From NCBI GenBank assembly GCA_905479685.1, contig CAJQNJ010000133.1, positions 1 to 59,393 on the forward strand: a stretch of DNA of 59,393 nucleotides. Direction: 5' to 3'. Each line of letters starts with the position of its first letter. The stretch's first letter is position 1. The DNA is from an uncultured Acidimicrobiales bacterium (GTDB taxonomy: Bacteria; Actinomycetota; Acidimicrobiia; Acidimicrobiales; SHLQ01). Of the stretch, positions 1,735 through 51,215 are shown in pieces. The translations under genes and the position numbers were made by a program. The notes beneath the pieces were generated by a model. It was not told the origin of the DNA and did not search any database. It saw nothing but the letters and a program-made list of their open reading frames with translations.

Positions 1735-3117
1735 GAACTCGCCGCTCGATGGGGGAAGAGCGGTGAGTACATGGCTTCTCTGAGCGGCGGACGGCCATGC
1801 GACAGATTCCCATCGCTCGACGAGTTCTGGGTCCGGTGCTGTCCGCGACGATCGTGCATCGAGGCGGCGAATGGTGTCGCCTCCACGAAAGTGTGTCGCA
1901 AGCTCGGAAGTCGTTCCGATGCTGACCGCATAGGGATTGTTGGAAGCATCCTCGATGTATGTTGCGCACCACCACTCACCGCCATCGGTGATCGTGTGCT
2001 GATAGTGCAGCATGAAACTCTGACTGGCCTGCCAGGCCTGTCGCACGCCCCACTGTCGCGAGACGCGCATTCCTTCGACAGTTCCGTCCTTGTCGGCGGG
2101 GTAGTCGATGCCGTCGTTTTCGTATGCCTTGGAGACGACCCCTTCCGGGTTGCATCGAAGGAAATGCACCGGGATTCCGAGGTGCTGGGTGGCCAGATTG
2201 GTGAAACGATGTGCGGCCATCTCGTATGACACGTAGAAGGCTTCCTTCAAGTCTTCGATCGACAGGTCGTTCTGCTCGAAGCTCCTCTTCAGGAGATCCA
2301 CTGCTGGGGCCTCCGGGATCAACGCCGCCGCAGAGAAGTAGTTCGATTCCACGCGCTGGCGAAGGTAGTCGCCGAAGTCACGTGTGGACGAATGCTCCAA
2401 GGCGTAGTGACCAAGGGTCTGGAGAACGACCGAGCGCGCCGCGCGCATGTCCACCTCTTCACGCAACGGGATGTAGATGATGCGGTTCCTCTGGTCGGTC
2501 ACCGAGCGCGCACTGCTCGGCATGCCACGTGCGCGTTCGACCCGAAAGCCGAAGTGAGAAGCCAGCTCGGTGATATGACGTTCCGAGAGTGGGCCAGAGC
2601 CCTGATAGTCGGTCGAGGCCATCGCCTCTGCCACGATCGATTCGATCTCGGAGAAGTAGTTGTTGGTCTCGCGCATTTCGCGTCGTAGTTCTGCGTTGGC
2701 GAGTCGTGCCTTGTCCTCTGCGCGGAGCGCGCGACCGCTGTCGGATTGCGGGACGCGGTTCCACAGTGCGACCACATGCTCGAGCACGTCGTCGCTGATC
2801 TTCGCGTTCGGTTTCAGGTGGGGCAGACCGAGCGCCTTGTATTGCGGATGCTCCTGCGCGTGCGCCAGATCGAGTTCGAGTTGAGCTCGTCGATTCGGTG
2901 GTGTCGCGTCGACGAGATCGGACATGGTCACGTCGAGGGTTTCGGCCAGATTGTTGAGTAACCCTATTTTGGGTTCGATCCGACCATTTTCGAGCTGCGA
3001 CAAGTATGGAACGGGCTTGTCGACACCTGCGCTGAGGTCAGCAAGCGTCATCTTTTGACGTTTGCGGAAGTGACGGATTCGGTGTCCGAGGACTCCGAGA
3101 TCGAGTGTGTCCGACAT
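1663..3117 (-). CDS. XRE-family HTH regulator with IrrE-like middle domain (ScfR / RamB-PrpR-like short-chain acyl-CoA regulator)
   Basis: N-terminal HTH (LGHRIRHFRKRQKMTLADL...YLSQLENG), NNYFSEIE, ESNYFSAAALIP, FYVSYEMAAHRFTNL. 3' end overlaps the convergent gene by 72 bp. Confidence 0.8.
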   Translation of the reverse strand: MSDTLDLGVLGHRIRHFRKRQKMTLADLSAGVDKPVPYLSQLENGRIEPKIGLLNNLAETLDVTMSDLVDATPPNRRAQLELDLAHAQEHPQYKALGLPHLKPNAKISDDVLEHVVALWNRVPQSDSGRALRAEDKARLANAELRREMRETNNYFSEIESIVAEAMASTDYQGSGPLSERHITELASHFGFRVERARGMPSSARSVTDQRNRIIYIPLREEVDMRAARSVVLQTLGHYALEHSSTRDFGDYLRQRVESNYFSAAALIPEAPAVDLLKRSFEQNDLSIEDLKEAFYVSYEMAAHRFTNLATQHLGIPVHFLRCNPEGVVSKAYENDGIDYPADKDGTVEGMRVSRQWGVRQAWQASQSFMLHYQHTITDGGEWWCATYIEDASNNPYAVSIGTTSELATHFRGGDTIRRLDARSSRTAPDPELVERWESVAWPSAAQRSHVLTALPPSSGEFSPFPGVDLVDVYRFLDRQRNTTS

Positions 3118-3276
3118 ACCTTGGCTCCCTACGCTCGCAACTTCGTGCGTTCTTTCGATAATGGCGGTGCTTTGATCAGTTTATCCCATAGATCTCTCTA
3201 GCTGAAGGGCGAAAATGGCGAGATTCTGTAATCGGGTAGCGCGGCGGGCGTTCCCGCGGCAAGAAGGAGATAGGCC

Positions 3277-3906
3277 ATGGCGGTCACCGATCAGACAACA
3301 CGACCACGACACGAGTTCGTGGCGCAGCCGTTCTCCGGAGCTGTTCCTGGGGTGGAGATCGTTCTACCAACCGCCAACAACCAGGGCATGGATCTCCTCG
3401 ACCCACGGACGCTGAAGTTGATCGGGTCCCTTCACCGCCGCTTCTGGTCGCGGCGTAAAGAGCTCCTCATGGGTTGCGCGCAGTCCGACCAGTCGGTTGC
3501 ACCGCGAGCCGCGAGTTCTGGATCGCTCGTGTACGCGATCGATCTCACGGGATCGTTGGCGAAAACGTGGGATGGTCGTATTGGTCTCCACAAGGACCTG
3601 CGCGAGATGGCCGAGGCGGACCCCACGCCCGAGGCGACGCCTCTCGTCGCGATTCGTGGATGGGGAGAGACCGAACCCGGTGTCCTTGTCGATGGCCGCT
3701 CGGTACCTGCGTGTATCTTCGACCTCGCGCTCGCACTTCGATCCGGCGCCGACTTGTTTCGACGAGAGGAACGGCCGTTCTCGATCAGCATTCCGGCTTC
3801 GGCGTGTGCAGAGGAGCAGCGCCTGTGGATAGATCTGTCGAACCTGGCCCACGATCGCACGGGGATCGACAGAGGGACCGTCGAGATCGGCGTCGACACG
3901 TATTGA
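3277..3906 (+). CDS. Truncated, divergent malate synthase A-like protein (209 aa)
   Basis: AAGGAG RBS. Segments LHRRFWSRRKELL, IRGWGETEPGVLVDGRSVPACIFDLAL and EEQRLWIDL...GIDRGTV align in order with AceB N-terminal/barrel motifs; the C-terminal half is absent. Confidence 0.65.
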   Translation: MAVTDQTTRPRHEFVAQPFSGAVPGVEIVLPTANNQGMDLLDPRTLKLIGSLHRRFWSRRKELLMGCAQSDQSVAPRAASSGSLVYAIDLTGSLAKTWDGRIGLHKDLREMAEADPTPEATPLVAIRGWGETEPGVLVDGRSVPACIFDLALALRSGADLFRREERPFSISIPASACAEEQRLWIDLSNLAHDRTGIDRGTVEIGVDTY

Positions 3907-3966
3907 TCGCTCGCTCCGATCCGATAGCGATCGGTTGGTGAGCAGAAGCTGCGGTACTACTGGTAC

Positions 3967-4656
3967 ATGGGAATTTTGAACGTCGACCGGGGCAGTGACG
4001 AACGCTCGGACGCGCTTCGTACGAGGCGAGACGTCATAGGGACGTATCTCTCCCACAAGTCCCCTCAGGTCATCCTCACCGGTGTCACGATCATCGCCGT
4101 TGTTCGGCTGCTCGTCGGTTCCGCCAGCTGGGGCGATCTTGTCGTGGTCGGCCTGACGATTCTCTTGACCGGATTCGTGGAGTGGTTCTTGCACCTCGTG
4201 TTACTTCATGCGCCAGAGGACTCGAAACGTATGACGAAGTTCGGCACGGGTTCTGGGCACCGTGAACACCATCTCGACCCGCTGAATGTCGGCTGGATCA
4301 TGCTTGGACCTCAAGACGCATTCATCTTCTTGTTGTTGCTCATGGGCTGGACCGCGGCATGGTCTCTGCCGCTCATCGCGTTGATCGGCGTCCCGTTCGT
4401 GGCCACGTATCTCACGGCTCTACTAGCCGCCTATCTCACGCTGGCGCACTACGAATGGGTGCATCTCTTGGTGCACACCCGCTACCGGGCCCGTAGTCGC
4501 TACTACCGACGCCTCGCAGCGAACCATCGGCTCCACCACTATCGCAACGAGCACTACTGGCTCGGGGTCACCTCGAACCTGGGAGATCGGATGCTTCGAA
4601 CCCTGCCAGCGGACAAGTCCGATGTCGCTCTCTCCGATACCGCCCGAACGCTATAA
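3967..4656 (+). CDS. Sterol desaturase / fatty acid hydroxylase superfamily membrane protein
   Basis: Hydrophobic segments with His boxes EWFLH, HREHH, EWVHLLVH, HRLHHY. Confidence 0.85.
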   Translation: MGILNVDRGSDERSDALRTRRDVIGTYLSHKSPQVILTGVTIIAVVRLLVGSASWGDLVVVGLTILLTGFVEWFLHLVLLHAPEDSKRMTKFGTGSGHREHHLDPLNVGWIMLGPQDAFIFLLLLMGWTAAWSLPLIALIGVPFVATYLTALLAAYLTLAHYEWVHLLVHTRYRARSRYYRRLAANHRLHHYRNEHYWLGVTSNLGDRMLRTLPADKSDVALSDTARTL

Positions 4657-4659
4657 CAA

Positions 4660-4749
4660 CCGCACTCGGCTTCGCCGATGCGGCTCCCTAGCGGCCGTTC
4701 GGCTCCTAGGTTCTTCCCCCGCACTCGGCTTCGCCGATGCGGCTCCCTA
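4660..4749. repeat. Two identical 31-bp REP-like palindromic units (4660-4690, 4719-4749)
   Basis: CCGCACTCGGCTTCGCCGATGCGGCTCCCTA occurs twice; each folds as CCGCA-c-TCGGC-ttc-GCCGA-TGCGG. The 28-bp spacer contains a degenerate copy (GCCGTTCGGCTCCTA). Confidence 0.8.
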
Positions 4750-4776
4750 TCGGTACGGCATGGGTAGCCTTGGTGG

Positions 4777-6453
4777 GTGACCGACAACGCTGCTGAACCG
4801 TCGACTGATTTCGTTCGGGAGAAGATCCGCAACGACAACACCTCGGGTTTGTACAGCGGTCGCGTACAAACGCGATTTCCGCCGGAGCCGAATGGATACC
4901 TCCACATCGGACATGCAAAGTCCATCGCGCTCAACTTTGGCATCGCCGCCGACTTCGATGGCATCTGCAACCTTCGATTCGACGACACCAATCCAGAGAC
5001 CGAGGACCAGGACTATGTGGACGGCATCGTCGAGGACATCGAGTGGCTCGGATACACGCCGCATTCGGTGGTCTACGCCTCGGACTATTTCGAGCAGCTC
5101 TACGCCTGGGCTGAATCCCTGATCGAACGCGGTCTCGCGTACGTCGACGACCAGGATGCCGAGATGATCTCTGCGCAACGTGGAGGGTTCACGACACCGG
5201 GTGTCGACAGTCCGTTCCGGGAGCGAAGCGTGGAGGAGAACCTCGAACTGTTTCGCAACATGCGAGCTGGCGCCTACGCAGAAGGCGAGCGAGTGCTCCG
5301 AGCGAAGATCGACATGAATCACGAGAACATGCAGATGCGTGATCCCGTCCTCTACCGAATTCGTCAGGCGCACCACGTCCGCACCGGTGACACCTGGGTG
5401 ATCTATCCGACCTATGACTGGGCGCACGGCCAGTCCGATGCCATCGAGCGGGTGACCCACTCGATCTGCACGCTCGAGTTCGACGCCCACCGACCGTTGT
5501 ACGACTGGTGTTTGGAGCACCTCGATCTGCCAGCCGAGAAGCCCGAACAAACCGAGTTCGCACGTCTCAACCTGACCCATACGGTCACCTCGAAGAGAAA
5601 ACTGCGACAGTTGGTTGAAGACGGCAGCGTCGACGGCTGGGACGATCCGCGGATGCCGACGCTTCGAGGGATCCGACGTCGGGGATACCCACCGGCTGCC
5701 ATCCGAGCGTTCATGGACCACATCGGTGTTGCCAAGAGCAACAGCACCCATGACATCGAGCTGCTCGAATCGTTCATACGTACCGAGCTCAACCGAACTG
5801 CACTTCGCCGAATGGCAGTTCTACGACCGCTCAAGGTCATCATCACCAACTGGCCCAGTGGCGCCGATGATCTGCGAGAGGCGATCAACAACCCAGAGGA
5901 TGACACCGCTGGGACTCGATTGGTGCCGTTCTCCGGAGAGCTCTGGATCGAAGAGGACGACTTCAAACTCGATCCGCCCCCCAAGTATTTTCGCCTGACG
6001 GTTGGTCGCGAGGTACGCCTCCGTGCGGGCTACTTCATCACGGCACATGACGTCGCAACCGATGCCTCGGGCAAGGTCACCGAGGTGTACTGCACGTACG
6101 ACCCAGAGACTGCCGGAGGCCAGGCTCCAGATGGTCGAAAGGTGAAGTCGACGATCCACTGGGTCTCGGCGGCTCACGCAATCGACGCCACGGTGAACCT
6201 CTACGAACGACTCCTTCTCGACAGCAACCCCGGCGCCGATGGGTCGGACCCGCTGTCGAGCCTGAACCCCAATTCGCGCGAGCAGCTCTCGAACGCGAAG
6301 CTCGAGCCTGCGCTCGCCGAGGTGGAGGTTGGACAAGTCGTCCAGTTCGAGCGCCTTGGATACTTCGCCGTGGACCTCGACGACACGAGCGTGTTCCATC
6401 GCACCGTTGGCCTCCGTGACGAGTGGGCCAACATCCAGAAACGAAAGCAATAG
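4777..6453 (+). CDS. glnS: Glutamine--tRNA ligase (GlnRS)
   Basis: TRFPPEPNGYLHIGHAKS (HIGH), LRFDDTNP, MRDPVLYRI, IYPTYD, VTSKRKL, DGWDDPRMPTL, QFERLGYF. Confidence 0.95.
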   Translation: MTDNAAEPSTDFVREKIRNDNTSGLYSGRVQTRFPPEPNGYLHIGHAKSIALNFGIAADFDGICNLRFDDTNPETEDQDYVDGIVEDIEWLGYTPHSVVYASDYFEQLYAWAESLIERGLAYVDDQDAEMISAQRGGFTTPGVDSPFRERSVEENLELFRNMRAGAYAEGERVLRAKIDMNHENMQMRDPVLYRIRQAHHVRTGDTWVIYPTYDWAHGQSDAIERVTHSICTLEFDAHRPLYDWCLEHLDLPAEKPEQTEFARLNLTHTVTSKRKLRQLVEDGSVDGWDDPRMPTLRGIRRRGYPPAAIRAFMDHIGVAKSNSTHDIELLESFIRTELNRTALRRMAVLRPLKVIITNWPSGADDLREAINNPEDDTAGTRLVPFSGELWIEEDDFKLDPPPKYFRLTVGREVRLRAGYFITAHDVATDASGKVTEVYCTYDPETAGGQAPDGRKVKSTIHWVSAAHAIDATVNLYERLLLDSNPGADGSDPLSSLNPNSREQLSNAKLEPALAEVEVGQVVQFERLGYFAVDLDDTSVFHRTVGLRDEWANIQKRKQ

Positions 6454-45169: not shown

Positions 45170-46687
45170 ATGGTACGTAGAGGGCGAGCGCGGTCGACAG
45201 CGCTCGAGCCCGTGATCCATCAGCTGCCGTGGCGTCAGGTCGAGAACAGCCATGGGCCGCTGCCGATCCTGGATCCAGAGGGAGTTGAACGCATCCATGA
45301 GGCCTCGCTGCGGGTGCTCGAAGAACTCGGCATCGAGCTGTGGAGCGCAGAGGCACGCAAACTCTTCGCAGATGCGGGTGCATCGGTTGACGGCGAGATC
45401 GTTCGGGTGGGCCGTGACGTGATCGAAGCCGCGCTCGTGAGTGCGCCACGGTCATTCACGCTCACGTCACGCAATCCCGAGAAAGCTCTCGAGATCGGGG
45501 GCAACAAGATCGCGTTCGGTTTGGTCGCTGGTCCGCCCGCCGTGCACGACGAGGTGAACGGGCGCCGCTCATCGAACATGGAGGACTACGAGAACTTCAC
45601 CCGCCTCGCGCACTACTTCAATGCGATCCACATCCTCGGCAATCAAGTGGCAGCCCCACTCGAACTTGCAGCAAACAACCGCCATCTCGACACCTACCGG
45701 GCGAATCTCACGCTCTCTGACCTCTGCTTTCATTGCAGCGCGATCGGCAGTGGCCGGGCGCTCGACGGCATCGAGATGATGGCGATCAGTCGCGGAATCA
45801 GTGTGGAGGAGATCGCTCGGTCACCCGGAGTGATCACGGTGATCAACGTCAACTCCCCTCGTCGCTTCGACGAGGAAATGGCGAATGGGCTGATGACGAT
45901 GAGCCGTCATGGTCAGGCCGTTTCGGTCACTCCGTTCACCCTCATGGGAGCGATGACGCCCGTGACGCTTGCGGCCGGGCTGACGCAGCAGAACGCGGAG
46001 GCGCTCTTCGGCATTGCGCTGACCCAGCTCGCCAATCCCGGAGCCCCCGTCGTCTACGGGTCGTTCACGTCGAATGTGGACATGCGCTCTGGAGCACCTG
46101 CGTTCGGCACGCCAGAACACGCGAAGGCGAACGTTGCCTCAGGTCAGCTGGCGCGGCGCTACAACCTTCCCTACCGGTCCTCGAATTCGAGCGCGTCGAA
46201 CGTCGTCGACGCACAAGCCGCGTACGAAACCCAGATGTCGCTCTGGGGAAGTGTGCTCGGCGGGACGAACCTGCTGTACCACGCGGCTGGCTGGATGGAA
46301 GGTGGCCTACAAGCCAGCTACGAGAAGTTCATCATCGATGTCGAGATGCTCCAGCAGATGATGGAGTTCTTGACACCGATCGATCTGAGTGACGCAGCGC
46401 TGGCGTTCGACGCAATGGAGCGAGTGCCCACCGGCGGACACTTCTTCGGTGACGAACACACCCTCGAGCGGTACGAGCATGCGTTCTACTCGCCACTCGT
46501 GAGCGATTGGCAGAACAATGGCGCATGGCGGGACGCAGGATCGAAAACGGCGACGCAACGGGCGACAGAGGTCTGGCAAGCTGCCCTAGGCGATTATGAG
46601 CAACCACCCATGGACGGTGCCATCCGTGACGAGCTCGACGAGTACGTGGCTCATCGCAAAGAACAGATCGGATCCGGAGATCCATGA
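45170..46687 (+). CDS. Trimethylamine methyltransferase (MttB) superfamily protein, non-pyrrolysine (MtgB-like)
   Basis: IHEASLRVLEELG, NVNSPRRFD, GAMTPVTLA, SNVDMRSGAPAFGTPE, DAQAAYE, HAAGWMEGG, GGHFFG; no in-frame amber codon. Confidence 0.9.
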   Translation: MVRRGRARSTALEPVIHQLPWRQVENSHGPLPILDPEGVERIHEASLRVLEELGIELWSAEARKLFADAGASVDGEIVRVGRDVIEAALVSAPRSFTLTSRNPEKALEIGGNKIAFGLVAGPPAVHDEVNGRRSSNMEDYENFTRLAHYFNAIHILGNQVAAPLELAANNRHLDTYRANLTLSDLCFHCSAIGSGRALDGIEMMAISRGISVEEIARSPGVITVINVNSPRRFDEEMANGLMTMSRHGQAVSVTPFTLMGAMTPVTLAAGLTQQNAEALFGIALTQLANPGAPVVYGSFTSNVDMRSGAPAFGTPEHAKANVASGQLARRYNLPYRSSNSSASNVVDAQAAYETQMSLWGSVLGGTNLLYHAAGWMEGGLQASYEKFIIDVEMLQQMMEFLTPIDLSDAALAFDAMERVPTGGHFFGDEHTLERYEHAFYSPLVSDWQNNGAWRDAGSKTATQRATEVWQAALGDYEQPPMDGAIRDELDEYVAHRKEQIGSGDP

Positions 46688-46810: not shown

Positions 46811-48157
46811 GTGGTGACTCCGTCAGAGTTCCCGACCCGCGTGATCGACTTCGTGTTGAACGCACGCTTCGAGGATCTGCCTGACCACGTTGTCAGATTC
46901 GCACAGCGGTGCCTGCTCGACCTCCTCGGCGTGGCTGCGGCGGGGCGGACGACGGAGTTGTCGTCGATCATCTCCCAACATGCGACATCTCATTTTGGTG
47001 GCGGTCTGAAGTCGGCTCCGATCCTTTTCGACGGCCGGCTGGTGAGTCCTGTGGGTGCAGCGCTCGCGAACGGTATGACGATCGATTCGATCGACGCACA
47101 TGATGGCCACAAGATCACCAAGGGACATACCGGCTGTCATCAGCTGCCTGCTCTGATGGCTTTCAGCGCAGCAGAGCATCGGGATGATCCCCGCACCTTT
47201 CTTGCCGATCTGGTCGTCGGGTACGAGTTCGCGACACGGGTTGGTATCGCGTTGCACGCAACAGTGCCCGACTACCACACGTCGGGAGCCTGGGGCGCCG
47301 TCGGCTGCGCAGCACTCGGTGCGCGGATTCTGGGCCTCGATCCCGCTCCGACCTTCGAGGCGATGGGGATCGCCGAGTACCACGGCCCACGCAGCCAGAT
47401 GATGCGTGTGATCGATCATCCAACGATGCTCAAGGACGGCTCGGGCTGGGGCGCAATGGCAGGTGTGTCCGCTGCCTATCTCGCGGCCGAGGGCTTCACC
47501 GGATCTCCTGCTGTCACGGTGAACGACCCCGAGATCGCTTGGGTGTGGGACGACATCGGTGCCCGGTGGCTCATCGAAGATCAGTACTTCAAGCCCCACC
47601 CGGTCTGTCGGTGGGCCCAACCTGCGGTGGAGGCTGCGCTCAGTCTGTGTCGGACTCATTCGATCGGCCCGGCCGATGTCGAACGTGTCGAGGTGTCGAC
47701 GTTCCACGAGGCTGTGAGGCTGGCCACGTCGCTTCCGGAAACGACCGAGGAGGCGCAGTACAGCCTGCCCTTTCCGGTGGCTGCGGCGATCGTCCGCGGT
47801 CGTCTCGGCCCGCTCGAGATCGGTGCGGCAGCGCTGGCAGATGACCAGATTCGAGCGATCTCGACTCGAGTGTCGATCGTCGAGGACGTGACCCACAACT
47901 CGGCGTTTCCGCAACATCGGTTCGCGCGCGTTGCCATCCGACTCACCGATGGGCGAACGGTTGTTTCGGACGACACCGAACCTCGAGGTGACCCTGAGGC
48001 CCATCTGAGCGATCGGGAGATTCGTGACAAGTTCTCCGAGTTCGCGACGCCGGTGTTGGGCGCCGAGCGCACCTCGGCCATCGAGGAGGCGGTGGACCAG
48101 CTTCCCGAGGCGAACTCCCTGACCACTCTGCTCGATCTCATCGTCGCACCGCTCTAG
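46811..48157 (+). CDS. MmgE/PrpD family protein
   Basis: RCLLDLLG, AALANG, DAHDGH, VVGYE, GAWG, YFKPHPVCRW, AQYSLPF, RGDPE. Confidence 0.9.
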   Translation: MVTPSEFPTRVIDFVLNARFEDLPDHVVRFAQRCLLDLLGVAAAGRTTELSSIISQHATSHFGGGLKSAPILFDGRLVSPVGAALANGMTIDSIDAHDGHKITKGHTGCHQLPALMAFSAAEHRDDPRTFLADLVVGYEFATRVGIALHATVPDYHTSGAWGAVGCAALGARILGLDPAPTFEAMGIAEYHGPRSQMMRVIDHPTMLKDGSGWGAMAGVSAAYLAAEGFTGSPAVTVNDPEIAWVWDDIGARWLIEDQYFKPHPVCRWAQPAVEAALSLCRTHSIGPADVERVEVSTFHEAVRLATSLPETTEEAQYSLPFPVAAAIVRGRLGPLEIGAAALADDQIRAISTRVSIVEDVTHNSAFPQHRFARVAIRLTDGRTVVSDDTEPRGDPEAHLSDREIRDKFSEFATPVLGAERTSAIEEAVDQLPEANSLTTLLDLIVAPL

Positions 48158-48205
48158 AGTCACGCTCCTAGACTCACGTCACCCCCAACTACGAGAGGTC
48201 CCATC

Positions 48206-48676
48206 ATGGACTTTCATGACATCACAATGGAGTCGATCACCGGAGAGTCGGTCGATTTCTCACAGTTCGCTGGTCAGCATCTGCTCATCGTCAACGTCGC
48301 GAGTTTTTGAGGTTCCACGCCGCAGTATGCAGGTCTGCGTACGCTCCACCACGACGTCGACGGATTGAGCGTTCTCGGCTTTCCGTGTAACCAGTTCGGC
48401 AACCAGGAGCCCGGCTCGAACGAAGAGATCCTCGAGTTCGTGACAACGAAGTACGACATCGACTTTCCGATGTTTTCCAAGATCGATGTGAATGGCGATG
48501 GCGCCGCGGATCTGTATTCGATGCTGAAACAGCAGCAACCCGGTGGCGATGACTCAGCCGACATCAAGTGGAACTTCGAGAAGTTCCTCGTCGACGGGGA
48601 CGGTACGGCAGTGGCTCGATGGGGTACCAAAGTCACCCCCGAAGAGATACGAGCCGAACTGCCCGACACCATATAG
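48206..48676 (+). CDS. gpx: Glutathione peroxidase, putative selenoprotein (Sec at codon 35, TGA 48308-48310), 156 aa
   Basis: Reading through TGA gives MDFHDITMESITGESVDFSQFAGQHLLIVNVASF-U-GSTPQYAGL...LGFPCNQFGNQEPG...IKWNFEKFLVD. The TGA occupies the peroxidatic Cys position of NVASxCG. GAGAGG RBS; SECIS-like hairpin follows. Confidence 0.9.
48322..48344 (+). promoter_or_regulatory. Bacterial SECIS-like hairpin
   Basis: GC-a-GUAUGCA-GGUC-UGCGUAC-GC stem-loop; the main stem starts 14 nt after the UGA and the apical loop begins with GG. Confidence 0.8.
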
Positions 48677-48761
48677 TTCGGTCCTCTCGATAGTTCGATC
48701 TTCTCGGAGCCGTAGGAGCCGAGGTCGACGCAACCCGAGTTCTCCGTGGCAAGCTGAAATC

Positions 48762-50219
48762 ATGACGAACGATCAGCTCCTCGACCGCCGAAACTTCTAT
48801 ATCAATGGAGCCTGGGTGGCCCCCACCATCGCCAACGACTTCCTCGTCATCGACCCATCGACAGAGGACGCGTGCGCCGTGATCTCTCTCGGTGACGAGG
48901 CGGACACGAACGCGGCCGTGGCAGCAGCCAAAGCAGCCTTTCCGAGCTGGAGCGTGACAAGCAAGGAGGACCGCATCGCGCTCCTCGAAAAGTTTCTCGA
49001 TGTGTACAAGTCGAGGAGCGACGAGATGGCTCAGGCGATCTCGATGGAGATGGGTGCTCCGATGTCTCTCGCAAGCACCGGACAGGTTGGTGCCGGCGCC
49101 GGACACACCAAGAGCATCATCCGTGCGCTGAAGGCGTTCGAATTCGAACGTCCCCTGGGACCTCATGCACCGGACAACACGATCCTCTACGAACCGATCG
49201 GTGTGGCAGCACTCATCACCCCATGGAATTGGCCTATGAATCAGGTGGCCCTCAAAGTTGTCCCGGCTCTTGGAGTTGGCTGCACGATGGTCCTCAAGCC
49301 GAGCGAGGTCGCACCGCTCAGCTCGGCGTTGTTTGCCGAGATGATGGACGAAGCCGGGTTCCCCCCGGGAGTCTTCAACTTGGTCAACGGCGATGGGCCT
49401 GGTGTGGGATCACAGCTCTCCGGCCACCCCGATGTCGACATGGTGTCCTTCACGGGCTCGACCCGAGCTGGCGTCGCGATCACCAAGAATGCAGCGGACT
49501 CGGTGAAGCGAGTTGCGCTCGAACTCGGCGGCAAAGGCGCCAACATCATTTTCGCCGATGCCGACGAAAAGGCGGTGGTGCGTGGTGTACGACAGTGTTT
49601 CAACAACTCGGGTCAGTCGTGCAACGCGCCGACGCGCATGCTCGTGGAACGATCTCGGTATGACGAGGCTGTTGCTACGGCACAAGAGGTCGCCGAGAAG
49701 ACCGCAGTCGACATCGCTGCCAAAGAGGGTCGTCACATCGGCCCCGTGGTCAGCGAGCTCCAATGGGACAAGATCCAAGCTCTCATCGCCAGGGGCGAAG
49801 AGGAAGGAGCTCGGTTGCTCGCTGGTGGCACCGGTCGACCAGAAGGACTCGACGCCGGCTACTTCGTGAAGCCCACGGTGTTTGCCGATGTCACGCCGGA
49901 CATGACCATCTCTCGCGAAGAAATCTTCGGTCCCGTCTTGTCGATGACTCCCTTCGACACCGAGGAAGAGGCGGTTGCGCTGGCCAACGACACCGCCTAC
50001 GGCCTTGCCAACTACGTGCAGACGACCGATCGCGAACGCGCACGTCGAGTGGCTCGCCAGCTCCGCTCGGGCGTGGTCGAGATGAACGGTTTGCCTCGAG
50101 GCGCGGGCGCTCCCTTCGGTGGCTACGGCCAGTCCGGCAATGGACGCGAAGGCGGCGAGTGGGGCATCGAGGAGTTCCTCGAGGTCAAGGTGGTCAGCGG
50201 GTGGAATTCCGCTGAGTAG
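48762..50219 (+). CDS. NAD(P)-dependent aldehyde dehydrogenase
   Basis: FYINGAW, ITPWNWP, LKPSE, SFTGST, LELGGK, NSGQSC, EEIFGPV, PFGGY. Confidence 0.93.
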   Translation: MTNDQLLDRRNFYINGAWVAPTIANDFLVIDPSTEDACAVISLGDEADTNAAVAAAKAAFPSWSVTSKEDRIALLEKFLDVYKSRSDEMAQAISMEMGAPMSLASTGQVGAGAGHTKSIIRALKAFEFERPLGPHAPDNTILYEPIGVAALITPWNWPMNQVALKVVPALGVGCTMVLKPSEVAPLSSALFAEMMDEAGFPPGVFNLVNGDGPGVGSQLSGHPDVDMVSFTGSTRAGVAITKNAADSVKRVALELGGKGANIIFADADEKAVVRGVRQCFNNSGQSCNAPTRMLVERSRYDEAVATAQEVAEKTAVDIAAKEGRHIGPVVSELQWDKIQALIARGEEEGARLLAGGTGRPEGLDAGYFVKPTVFADVTPDMTISREEIFGPVLSMTPFDTEEEAVALANDTAYGLANYVQTTDRERARRVARQLRSGVVEMNGLPRGAGAPFGGYGQSGNGREGGEWGIEEFLEVKVVSGWNSAE

Positions 50220-50285: not shown

Positions 50286-51215
50286 ATGACACGTGTCGTT
50301 GCCCCCATCGAGCGCGAGCTCCCCGCATTGACACATCCGCAGGGAGCGTTGATCGTCTTTGGGACTGGCATCTTCTTCAGCTTCGGCGGTCTGGCCTTTC
50401 GCTCGGTCGAAGACGTGGGCGCCTGGGAGTATCTGTTCTTTCGTGGCCTCGGGATGTTGTGTGTTGCGGCTGCCGTTCTCGCAGTGCGCTATCGAAAGCG
50501 TTATGACGTACTGATCAGCGGCATCGAACACGGCCATCTCATGGCGGGACTCGTCCTTGGATTGATGAACATCCTGTTCATCGTCTCCTTGTCCTTCGCA
50601 TCGGTGGCCTTCGTGCTCGTACTGCAGACGATGGCGCCGCTTGCCGCGGGATACTTCAGTTGGCTGCTCATGGGAGAACGTCCGAGCTCGTCTGTGCTCG
50701 TGGCGACCGCCATCAGCGTCGTGGGTGTGTTCGTCATGGTGCGAGGTTCAATCCAGAGCGACCTCTCGCCGTATGGTCTGCTCGCTGCGTTGATCCCGCT
50801 CGGGTTTGGCTACTACAGCACACTCATCCGATCGGCCAGAAGGATCGATCCGTCGGTTCCTCTCGTGGTTGCCGGGGTCGCGATCGTCTCATCCGGTGCA
50901 GTGGTGGTGCTGCTCCGAGGTGGGTTTCACGCAACACCACGAGAAGCGGCAATCGGACTCTTCGCTGGCAGCATTCTCTTGGCCCTGCCGCTTGCCGTCT
51001 TCAACATCGCACAACGAGTTGTGCCGTCCCCCGAGGCGTCGATTCTGATCATGAGCGAGATCATCCTTGCTCCAATCTGGGTCTGGGTTTTTGTTGGCGA
51101 GAAGGCATCGGCATCGACTCTGCTCGGCGGCGCGATCATCCTTGCGGCAGTGATCTGGGTGACGCTCAACCGGGTACCGAGACGAGGACGCCGGCCGATC
51201 ACCAGTCGAGGTTGA
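50286..51215 (+). CDS. DMT/EamA family transporter
   Basis: About 10 TM helices, duplicated EamA pattern (LMGER...VGEK), SEIILAPIWVW. Confidence 0.85.
   Translation: MTRVVAPIERELPALTHPQGALIVFGTGIFFSFGGLAFRSVEDVGAWEYLFFRGLGMLCVAAAVLAVRYRKRYDVLISGIEHGHLMAGLVLGLMNILFIVSLSFASVAFVLVLQTMAPLAAGYFSWLLMGERPSSSVLVATAISVVGVFVMVRGSIQSDLSPYGLLAALIPLGFGYYSTLIRSARRIDPSVPLVVAGVAIVSSGAVVVLLRGGFHATPREAAIGLFAGSILLALPLAVFNIAQRVVPSPEASILIMSEIILAPIWVWVFVGEKASASTLLGGAIILAAVIWVTLNRVPRRGRRPITSRG

What the first reader, a model, noticed from the sequence alone, without database searches (positions are those of the whole stretch)
48206..48676. Hidden selenoprotein: glutathione peroxidase with UGA at the catalytic Cys
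Seen: the ORF track has only a 103-aa fragment (48365..48676). The same frame extends up to ATG 48206 (GAGAGG RBS) with a single TGA at 48308-48310, giving NVASF-[TGA]-GSTPQY. The other GPx motifs (FPCNQF, WNFEKF) are intact and there is no frameshift. Known: the GPx peroxidatic residue lies in NVASxCG and is Sec in animal GPx; most bacterial GPx use Cys, and Sec use is patchy in Actinobacteria. Inference: a genuine Sec-GPx in a probable Acidimicrobiia genome that standard pipelines would call truncated or a pseudogene. It implies selA/selB/selC/selD and possibly more selenoproteins elsewhere in the genome.
Basis: partly seen in the sequence, partly recalled or inferred. Interest (0 to 1): 0.9.

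Follow-up and report, generated by a model that had tools for sequence, protein, structure and literature searches.

The report
Selenocysteine glutathione peroxidase with SECIS hairpin
This gene makes a peroxide-detoxifying enzyme whose active-site residue is selenocysteine encoded by a recoded stop codon; it is real and conserved across a whole group of marine actinobacteria, but belongs to an already known kind of bacterial selenoprotein that gene callers routinely truncate.

Summary
The frame ATG 48206 to TAG 48676 (+) has one in-frame TGA (48308-48310, codon 35) and is a full-length GPx-family protein (PF00255, E 1.5e-38). The TGA is in 39 other genomes (24 of 25 of the genus, 11 of 11 others of the family, 4 of 24 other families of the order). 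It sits at the same codon in 30 of 30 fetched loci. More distant homologues carry TGC/TGT there (63 of 80). Both halves are under purifying selection. An 18-nt hairpin with a GGUC loop (48325-48342) follows the TGA. Its six codons are frozen at synonymous sites (pS 0.013 against 0.62), and its apex matches 11 nt of the E. coli fdhF stretch after its TGA. The genome has selA and selB, tRNA-Sec and five more candidate selenoproteins. selD was not found in this 85%-complete assembly, but a contig break lies where the closest relative has it. Bacterial Sec-GPx is already in print (Treponema denticola, GOS). This is a new clade of a known kind, in Ilumatobacteraceae and related Acidimicrobiales.

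The parts
48193..48198 (+). Shine-Dalgarno-like GAGAGG, 7 nt before the ATG
   Evidence: Read directly. Consensus likeness only, not tested.
48206..48676 (+). Full coding sequence of the Sec-containing GPx-family peroxidase (156 aa plus TAG stop)
   Evidence: PF00255, 131.1 bits, cut-off 27. The start Met is shared by orthologues. PDB GPx chains align over residues 3-152 (E 2.4e-39).
48308..48310 (+). UGA read as selenocysteine (U35), the peroxidatic residue
   Evidence: Same codon is TGA in 30 of 30 fetched orthologues. It is TGC/TGT in 63 of 80 wider homologues. It aligns with the Cys of the ...ASKCG... motif in solved GPx chains.
48309..48323 (+). Possible lower hairpin that includes the GA of the UGA (weak)
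   Evidence: helix 1: 85.1% of cells paired. One pair (alignment columns 12-18, two third-codon positions) covaries: CG 11, GC 6, AU 1, GU 1, UG 1, unpaired 8. In the window itself two of the six pairs are broken. Tentative.
48325..48342 (+). bSECIS hairpin: 7-bp stem (G-C, U-A, A-U, U.G, G-C, C-G, A-U) closing the tetraloop GGUC at 48332-48335
   Evidence: helix 2: 100% paired in 28 distinct sequences; the six codons Q40-R45 use one codon each in 30 of 30 (TAT once, in the window, which keeps a U.G pair); pS 0.013 against 0.62 in the flanks; 11 nt are identical to the apex of the E. coli fdhF stretch after its TGA.
48404..48406 (+). Gln67 of FGNQEPG (GPx catalytic tetrad)
   Evidence: Invariant in alignment A3 and aligned to the same Gln in PDB GPx chains. 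Its role is recalled from the GPx literature.
48569..48574 (+). Trp122-Asn123 of KWNFEKF (GPx catalytic tetrad)
   Evidence: Invariant in A3 and aligned. The role is recalled.
48365..48676 (+). The 103-aa fragment that table-11 gene callers report in place of the whole gene
   Evidence: The same 103-aa protein is in the protein collection (P0002).

Best explanation
The locus encodes a 156-aa GPx-family peroxidase whose peroxidatic residue (codon 35) is selenocysteine. During translation the UGA at 48308-48310 is recoded. The mRNA hairpin 15 nt downstream (48325-48342, GGUC loop 24 nt after the U of UGA) is bound by the elongation factor SelB carrying Sec-tRNA(Sec) (anticodon UCA). SelB delivers the tRNA to the ribosome, so Sec is inserted instead of termination. 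The enzyme then reduces hydroperoxides through a selenol/selenenic-acid cycle, using the conserved Gln67, Trp122 and Asn123. It has no Cys at the positions where the Cys of Hyr1 and poplar GPx5 align; I recall those Cys as the resolving ones. It is therefore most likely recycled by an external thiol. Shown here: the conserved UGA, the hairpin under selection, and the presence of selA, selB and selC. Inferred: SelB binding, Se incorporation, peroxidase activity and the reductant. The reductant is perhaps mycothiol/mycoredoxin or thioredoxin rather than glutathione.
For: Family: PF00255 full length; PDB GPx chains at E 2.4e-39.

Conserved UGA: 40 of the 57 match rows have exactly one TGA, the window's own row and one partial match in G010 included. 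That covers 24 of 25 other genomes of the genus, 11 of 11 of the family's other genera, and 4 of 24 other families of the order. The TGA is at codon 35 in 30 of 30 fetched loci. In seven of those orthologues the gene itself ends in TGA.

Sec/Cys alternation: of 80 genome-contig loci, 17 have TGA and 63 have TGC/TGT at that codon. All 16 loci at 59% identity or more have TGA.

Selection: pN/pS is 0.44 for codons 1-34 and 0.30 for codons 46-152, over 435 pairs.

SECIS: 30 of 30 orthologues carry the same 18 nt, with one C>U in the window that keeps a U.G pair. The stem is 100% paired. Invariant four-fold-degenerate residues elsewhere in the gene use 3-4 codons each, whereas Q40-R45 use one each. 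pS is 0.013 against 0.62. The apex shares 11 nt with the E. coli fdhF stretch after its TGA, with the loop 3 nt (one codon) further from the UGA. Cys-form homologues have no such hairpin and have E/Q where the Sec forms need R45.

Machinery: SelA at 381.7 bits (cut-off 267.9) and SelB at 280.5 bits (cut-off 242.25), side by side on C38. SelB has the winged-helix domain PF09107. tRNA-Sec.

Other candidates in the genome have a stem closing a loop that begins GGUC 21-24 nt after the TGA: an FdhA-like protein, two CMD/AhpD-like CxxU proteins, an AhpC-TSA UxxC protein and a MerB-like protein.

TGA is otherwise the main stop: 1,099 of 1,586 long frames end in it.
Against: selD was not found in this assembly. 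The family search gave a best score of 36.1 bits against a cut-off of 125. tblastn with the closest relative's SelD found nothing at E 1e-3. Without selenophosphate no Sec-tRNA can be made. This is mitigated: the MAG is 85.3% complete, 22 of 25 other genomes of the genus have selD, and contig C179 starts about 1.25 kb from where selD lies in the syntenic contig of G004.

The hairpin is no more stable than shuffled sequence (z 0.34 for 81 nt; z -0.49 for 40 nt).

The stem never covaries, because it is invariant, so pair counts alone say nothing for it.

Rfam gave no SECIS match.

There is no protein-level or Se-labelling evidence.
Confidence: 0.93

Rival explanations
1. The UGA is read through without selenium in this organism. 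If selD is truly absent from this strain, Cys (or Trp) is inserted, or translation mostly terminates. The gene would then be a Sec gene by descent but not in present use.
For: selD was not found in G000. Three of the 25 other genomes of the genus also gave no selD match.
Against: selA, selB and tRNA-Sec are retained intact. Five other candidate Sec genes are retained. A contig break lies at the expected selD position. The three relatives without a selD match are assemblies of about 72-93% completeness. The hairpin is intact in the window.
Confidence: 0.04
2. Pseudogene: a nonsense mutation at the catalytic Cys codon killed the gene, and only a functionless 103-aa remnant ORF is left.
For: Under table 11 the frame is broken. 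Databases hold only the fragment (P0002).
Against: The same TGA is present in 39 other genomes down to 58% identity. Purifying selection acts on both sides of it. The hairpin is under synonymous-site constraint. The start codon is conserved.
Confidence: 0.01
3. Sequencing or assembly error, or a genome-wide reassignment of TGA (code 4 or 25).
For: Some database proteins of this clade show W at the position (7 of the 17 database proteins I aligned), as if called under code 4.
Against: Contigs of independent studies carry the same letters. TGA ends 1,099 of 1,586 long frames in this genome, and the neighbouring genes 45170-46687 and 50286-51215 end in TGA. The only tRNA found that reads UGA is tRNA-Sec. 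The position is the catalytic Cys, where W or G would kill the enzyme.
Confidence: 0.01

Closest known systems
Bacterial GPX-like selenoprotein family (PF00255, motif UxxT; type example WP_010957027.1, Treponema denticola)
   Same: Same Pfam family. Sec is at the peroxidatic position and the motif U-G-S-T fits UxxT. The family is listed in the review table I read (PMC13188914, passages), in PMC9312934 (passages) and in the tables of PMC1794560 (passages). The table read in PMC2398784 lists 40 Sec-GPx against 3,287 Cys homologues in the GOS metagenome.
   Different: This is a different lineage (Ilumatobacteraceae and other Acidimicrobiales, not Spirochaetes). I did not compare sequence with the Treponema protein. 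In the passages and search listings I saw, no paper names this actinobacterial clade or its SECIS.
E. coli fdhF (formate dehydrogenase H) SECIS
   Same: A stem-loop directly after the UGA inside the coding region with a GGUC apical loop. Eleven nucleotides around the loop are identical, and they code A-G-L in the same frame. That this fdhF hairpin binds SelB is recalled knowledge.
   Different: The loop lies 3 nt further from the UGA (positions 25-28 against 22-25, counting the U as 1). The lower part of the element differs. The bulged U of the fdhF element (recalled) has no obvious counterpart; here the stem is continuous.
Animal GPx4 (monomeric Sec-GPx)
   Same: Full-length alignment to GPx4 chains (for example 2obi_A, E 1.8e-33, residues 3-153). 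Sec is at the same position, and the Gln/Trp/Asn residues are conserved.
   Different: The eukaryotic SECIS lies in the 3' UTR and uses SBP2/eEFSec (recalled; stated for eukaryotes in the abstract of PMC1802603). The reductant here is unlikely to be glutathione: no gshB over the cut-off (63 bits against 299).
Thioredoxin-dependent Cys-GPx (yeast Hyr1/Gpx3, poplar GPx5) and E. coli BtuE
   Same: Among the best PDB matches: 3cmi_A at E 1.6e-37 and 2p5q_A at E 3.2e-37. The best NCBIfam match is the BtuE-type model NF007900.
   Different: In the alignments the Cys of Hyr1 (..qfCq..) and of GPx5 (..fvCt..) align with V79 and T80 here. That these are the resolving Cys is recalled. The NF007900 score of 153.3 is under its cut-off of 270, and TIGR02540 scores 116.2 under 207.3.

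Membership tests
Glutathione peroxidase family (Pfam PF00255 GSHPx) | Full-length domain match above the gathering score | tested here: met
   131.1 bits against 27, covering model positions 1-108 of 108.
Glutathione peroxidase family (Pfam PF00255 GSHPx) | Peroxidatic Sec/Cys in the N-terminal (N)VAS-x-[UC]-G motif | tested here: met
   (NVASF-U-G). It aligns with the Cys of solved GPx chains and with the Cys of 63 homologues.
Glutathione peroxidase family (Pfam PF00255 GSHPx) | Gln, Trp and Asn of the catalytic tetrad (definition recalled) | tested here: met
   Q67, W122 and N123 are invariant in A3 and aligned.
Glutathione peroxidase family (Pfam PF00255 GSHPx) | Hydroperoxide reduction with a thiol reductant | not testable with these tools
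   This needs an enzyme assay.
Bacterial selenoprotein (SelB/SECIS-dependent UGA recoding) | In-frame UGA conserved among orthologues and replaced by Cys codons in homologues | tested here: met
Bacterial selenoprotein (SelB/SECIS-dependent UGA recoding) | Stem-loop inside the coding region directly 3' of the UGA, with a G/U-containing apical loop | tested here: met
   Caveats: the folding energy is not exceptional, and Rfam holds no model that matches.
Bacterial selenoprotein (SelB/SECIS-dependent UGA recoding) | selA, selB and tRNA-Sec in the genome | tested here: met
Bacterial selenoprotein (SelB/SECIS-dependent UGA recoding) | selD (selenophosphate synthetase) in the genome | tested here: inconclusive
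   Not found in G000. The assembly is 85.3% complete. A contig break lies about 1.25 kb from the syntenic selD position. selD is present in 22 of 25 other genomes of the genus.
Bacterial selenoprotein (SelB/SECIS-dependent UGA recoding) | Selenium in the polypeptide | not testable with these tools
   This needs 75Se labelling or mass spectrometry.
BtuE-type glutathione peroxidase (NCBIfam NF007900, equivalog) | Score over the curated cut-off | tested here: not met
   153.3 bits against 270.
Gpx7 (TIGR02540, equivalog) | Score over the curated cut-off | tested here: not met
   116.2 bits against 207.3.
2-Cys thioredoxin-dependent GPx (Hyr1 / plant GPx5 type) | Resolving Cys in the helix after FPCNQF (position recalled) | tested here: not met
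   V79 and T80 align with those Cys. The only Cys in the protein is C61.

The most novel reading that the evidence does not exclude
The Acidimicrobiales Sec-GPx clade is a one-Sec peroxidase recycled by mycothiol/mycoredoxin or thioredoxin. That would make it the first selenoperoxidase of Actinomycetota working without glutathione. Its 18-nt SECIS is frozen across a whole family and identical at its apex to E. coli fdhF. This may reflect a SelB recognition code shared between Proteobacteria and Actinomycetota, strict enough to dictate the protein sequence (A-G-L-R) of the enzyme. If so, the element should work unchanged in E. coli.
Probability: 0.3. Interest if true: 0.5.

Novelty: new member of a known kind. 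Interest (0 to 1): 0.35.

Why it matters
It corrects an annotation error that recurs across a whole family of common marine, estuarine and sediment actinobacteria. Databases hold the gene as 99-125 aa fragments or with Trp at the active site, so antioxidant capacity and selenium dependence of these organisms are under-counted. The clade offers a clean natural example of an RNA signal constraining a protein sequence: six codons are frozen, and Arg45 is required by the 3' arm of the stem. It also points to two cultured carriers in which Sec insertion and the reductant could be tested. It does not change what is known about how Sec is decoded.

Tried and rejected
Folding energy as evidence for the SECIS. 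The z-scores are unremarkable, so I relied on synonymous-site conservation instead.

Rfam scan of 48100-48800 at E up to 10. The only match was a chance hit to sR18 (E 4.3). No SECIS model matched.

selD. The family search of the own genome gave only 36.1- and 26.2-bit hits. tblastn with the SelD of G004, with X at its Sec, gave no hit. Synteny with the single-contig relative G009 was not informative. Synteny with G004 was.

Genome-wide scan for TGA plus hairpin. It gave 491 candidates, mostly noise, and ranking by GC3 did not separate genes. I then kept the 58 with a loop beginning GGT and 4-5 nt long and picked five by eye for Pfam. The other 433, and the 52 remaining of the 58 (the GPx itself being one of the 58), were not tested, so the list of selenoproteins is a minimum.

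RNA evidence. The one RNA run laid (X20) has a 172-nt contig on 48578-48749 only. It does not reach the TGA, and an RNA library can hold DNA. This is no evidence of expression.

Careful maximum-likelihood tree. It did not finish in 288 s, so the quick tree was used.

Reductant. MshC-like (424.6 bits against a cut-off of 485.1) and MshA-like (392.7 against 462.5) frames are full length but under their cut-offs. gshB was not found (63 against 299.05). This is suggestive of mycothiol and nothing more.

Supplementary files were not asked for; the supplements of PMC1794560 and PMC2398784 may list actinobacterial GPx entries that I could not see.

Not done: structure prediction, complex prediction, the search of protein representatives and the protein-atlas search. 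They were not needed for a protein with clear solved relatives.

Full report
WHAT IS THERE. On the + strand an ATG at 48206 opens a frame that runs to TAG at 48674-48676 with one in-frame TGA at 48308-48310. GAGAGG lies 7 nt upstream of the ATG at 48193-48198. Under table 11 only a 103-aa piece (48365..48676) is listed. Read through, the 156-aa product matches Pfam GSHPx over the whole model (E 1.5e-38, 131.1 bits, cut-off 27). It aligns end to end with solved glutathione peroxidases (best 6vpd_A, E 2.4e-39, residues 3-152). The TGA falls on the Cys of the ...AS-x-C-G... motif of those chains. Q67, W122 and N123, which I recall as the rest of the GPx catalytic tetrad, are invariant in alignment A3.

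IS THE TGA MEANT? I searched 60 relatives' genomes in six frames with the read-through protein. Of the 57 match rows, 40 have exactly one TGA, including the window's own row and one partial match. Sixteen rows have no stop and one has a TAG. By kinship, the TGA form is in 24 of 25 other genomes of the genus; the 25th, about 87% complete, gave no match. It is also in 11 of 11 genomes of the family's other genera and in 4 of 24 genomes from other families of the order. Of the other 20 of those 24, 13 have only a homologue without a TGA at 50% identity or less (one of them with an in-frame TAG), and 7 gave no match.

In all 30 loci fetched the TGA is at the same codon, 35. Seven of these orthologues end their own gene with TGA. 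In the window's genome TGA closes 1,099 of 1,586 stop-to-stop frames of 350 codons or more. So TGA is a normal stop here and is recoded only in this context.

In a separate scan of named genomes the best 80 loci have TGA 17 times, TGC 41 times and TGT 22 times at this codon. All 16 loci at 59% identity or more have TGA. All 63 Cys forms are at 56% identity or less.

Uncorrected pN/pS over 435 pairs is 0.44 for codons 1-34 and 0.30 for codons 46-152. Both halves are therefore kept as protein.

Contigs from two further studies cover the TGA without any differing letter. Pseudogene, sequencing error and code change are thereby excluded for practical purposes.

THE RECODING SIGNAL. From 15 nt after the TGA, all 30 orthologues carry the same 18 nucleotides. 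The single difference is a C>U in the window itself, which turns a C-G pair into U.G. The 18 nt fold into a 7-bp stem closing the tetraloop GGUC (window 48325-48342, loop 48332-48335; predicts the same stem). On the alignment the stem is paired in 100% of 28 distinct sequences. Five pairs never vary and two vary on one side only, keeping the pair.

Because the stem is invariant there is no covariation, so pair counts cannot prove it. The hairpin is also no more stable than shuffled sequence. The strong evidence is elsewhere. The stem is made of the codons Q40-Y-A-G-L-R45, and each uses one codon in 30 of 30 sequences (TAT once). Every other invariant four-fold-degenerate residue of the gene uses three or four codons. 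The synonymous difference is 0.013 in these six codons against 0.62 on either side.

The Cys-form homologues vary freely at these codons. They have Glu or Gln where the Sec forms have Arg45, whose CGU makes the 3' arm of the stem.

I fetched E. coli K-12 fdhF. Eleven nucleotides around its GGUC are identical to the window's, and they are read in the same frame (A-G-L). Counting the U of UGA as 1, the loop is at positions 22-25 in fdhF and 25-28 here, one codon further.

A second, lower hairpin that would include the GA of the UGA (48309-48323) is only weakly supported. It is 85% paired, with one pair of third-codon positions that covaries. Two of its six pairs are broken in the window.

THE MACHINERY. 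The window's genome is a 3.2-Mb, 246-contig assembly, 85.3% complete. selA (381.7 bits, cut-off 267.9) and selB (280.5 bits, cut-off 242.25) lie side by side on contig C38. By Pfam they are SelA and a SelB with its C-terminal winged helix. A tRNA-Sec with anticodon TCA is on contig C6 (65.1 bits against 47; ARAGORN).

selD was not found. The best family score was 36.1 bits against a cut-off of 125, and tblastn with the SelD of the closest relative found nothing. This is the one defining part that is missing.

I read it as an assembly gap, for two reasons. First, 22 of 25 other genomes of the genus have selD. Second, in the closest relative (G004) selD lies at about 137-1198 of a contig whose positions 2470-5085 are collinear with the first 2.6 kb of the window genome's contig C179. 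C179 therefore begins about 1.25 kb short of the expected gene. This is suggestive, not proof.

OTHER SELENOPROTEINS. A crude scan of the genome looked for a TGA in a long open frame followed by a hairpin. It gave 491 candidates, of which 58 have a 4-5-nt loop beginning GGT. By eye, five besides the GPx looked like real proteins, and I sent those five to Pfam.
- A molybdopterin oxidoreductase of the formate-dehydrogenase type (C151; PF00384, E 5.3e-70).
- Two carboxymuconolactone-decarboxylase/AhpD-like proteins with C-x-x-U (C8, over the cut-off; C236, 21.1 bits, just under 23).
- An AhpC-TSA protein with U-x-x-C fused to a DsbD_N domain (C11).
- A MerB-like domain fused to a nucleotide cyclase (C78).

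In all six genes, the GPx included, a 6-7-bp stem closes a loop that begins GGUC 21-24 nt after the TGA. The scan itself required a loop beginning GGT, so this agreement is only partly independent. The rest of the candidates were not tested.

WHO HAS IT. Named relatives are Ilumatobacter nonamiensis YM16-303, an Ilumatobacter MAG, Salinilacustrithrix flava, and Ilumatobacteraceae, Acidimicrobiaceae and Acidimicrobiales MAGs.

On a quick maximum-likelihood tree of 107 distinct rows (45 Sec, 62 Cys), 44 Sec forms make one clade (SH-aLRT 97). The careful search did not finish. The 45th Sec form, from Enhygromyxa salina, sits among Cys forms and has a different hairpin after its TGA. This fits one origin of the Sec form in Acidimicrobiales and a separate one in a myxobacterium. 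The tree is unrooted and quick, so I claim no more.

Metagenomic proteins with a real-looking Cys at 60-63% identity exist. They were not placed on the tree. Some shown with C may in fact bear U, since the tools print U as C.

HOW IT PROBABLY WORKS. SelB with Sec-tRNA(Sec) binds the hairpin as the ribosome reaches the UGA, and Sec is inserted. This is inferred from the anatomy and from the presence of the parts.

The enzyme is a monomer-type GPx whose only Cys is C61 in FPCNQF. At the positions where the Cys of yeast Hyr1 and of poplar GPx5 align, it has V79 and T80. I recall those Cys as the resolving ones. A thioredoxin-type 2-Cys cycle through that residue is therefore not available, and an external thiol must reduce the selenenic acid.

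The genome has full-length MshC-like and MshA-like frames just under their cut-offs and no glutathione synthetase. Mycothiol/mycoredoxin or thioredoxin is therefore more likely than glutathione. This step is the least supported.

WHAT IS KNOWN. Bacterial Sec-GPx is an established family.
[quoted passage not shown] The window's U-G-S-T fits that motif.
- PMC1794560 (passages and tables read) lists one GPx selenoprotein, in Treponema denticola, and calls Actinobacteria a selenoprotein-rich phylum.
- PMC2398784 (table passage read) counts 40 Sec-GPx sequences against 3,287 Cys homologues in the GOS marine metagenome.
- A 2026 preprint on Actinomarina, another order of Acidimicrobiia, reports Sec machinery and about five predicted selenoproteins per genome. 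'Glutathione peroxidase' does not occur in its text (0 occurrences).

My three literature searches listed no paper on Sec-GPx in Ilumatobacteraceae or on this SECIS. That is three keyword searches of an open-access library, not proof of absence, and supplements were closed.

ANNOTATION STATE. Of the 120 best database proteins, 16 are 99-125 aa long. These include the window's own 103-aa piece and a 121-aa 'MAG: glutathione peroxidase [Actinomycetota bacterium]'. I aligned 17 of the 120. At the Sec column seven show W and one shows R; the W entries look like calls under a TGA=W code. Six show C, and three start after the TGA.

VERDICT. It is a new, well-conserved actinobacterial clade of a known family, not a new kind of thing. 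The interest is moderate. It is useful for annotation, and it is a neat case of an RNA element constraining a protein.

Noticed in passing
G000 contigs: C151:25951-27933 (+), C8:2091-2795 (+), C236:6430-7227 (+), C11:12507-13739 (+), C78:8886-9785 (-): Five further open frames, each with one in-frame TGA followed by a hairpin whose loop begins GGUC. They are an FdhA-like molybdopterin oxidoreductase, two CMD/AhpD-like CxxU proteins, an AhpC-TSA UxxC protein fused to DsbD_N, and a MerB-like domain fused to a nucleotide cyclase. They are likely selenoproteins that table-11 callers split.
   Followed up: partly
Relatives' genomes, for example G004:C55:179-1096, G009:C1:1921385-1922302, G007:C7:34854-35747: selD comes in two forms within the genus. 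One is about 350-aa with an in-frame TGA (a Sec-SelD; 10 match rows in 9 genomes). The other has no stop and in 11 of its 13 match rows lies in an open frame of 730-836 aa, suggesting a fusion protein. In seven genomes (G007, G015, G017, G018, G022, G024, G025) this long form lies 5.5-15 kb from the Sec-GPx gene on the same contig.
   Followed up: no
L091 (Enhygromyxa salina SWB007, NZ_PVNL01000147.1): A GPx homologue at 52% identity also has TGA at the catalytic codon. It has a different downstream hairpin (6-bp stem, 5-nt loop containing GGU) and sits among Cys forms on the quick tree. It looks like an independent Sec-GPx in a myxobacterium.
   Followed up: partly
Database proteins P0003, P0004, P0006, P0008, P0012, P0013, P0026 (W) and P0007 (R): Public gene calls of this clade show Trp (seven) or Arg (one) at the Sec position. 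The Trp entries look like TGA read under code 4 or 25 on short metagenome contigs. This is an annotation artefact that hides the selenoprotein.
   Followed up: no
L059 (CAXMRH010000058.1), L070, L072: Record titles place three carriers of the Acidimicrobiales-type Sec-GPx in Chthoniobacterales, Pseudomonadales and Kofleriaceae. L059 is the same contig as G004:C58, which the genome tool places in the window's own genus. At least that title looks like a mislabelled MAG. The other two could be mis-binning or gene transfer.
   Followed up: no
window 45170-46687 (+): A 505-aa uninterrupted member of the trimethylamine methyltransferase MttB family (PF06253, E 1.6e-202) has no in-frame stop under table 11. 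It is thus a non-pyrrolysine MttB-superfamily member. It is followed by an MmgE/PrpD-family gene (46811-48157), and an aldehyde dehydrogenase (48762-50219) lies after the GPx.
   Followed up: partly
window 48307-48343 and 48566-48602: In the laid contigs the summed depth jumps over the SECIS hairpin (X18: 81 against 4.6 beside it; X1: 35.8 against 20.4) and over the WNFEKF codons (X18: 375; X1: 297). That is, many short contigs of other community members match these two stretches at 90% or more. This is in keeping with the extreme conservation of the hairpin.
   Followed up: no
G000:C167:10443-12790 (-): Two adjacent CysS/MshC-like frames (424.6 and 280.7 bits to the MshC model, both under the 485.1 cut-off) and an MshA-like frame on C33 (392.7 bits against 462.5). 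A mycothiol pathway is possible in an Acidimicrobiia genome but not established.
   Followed up: no
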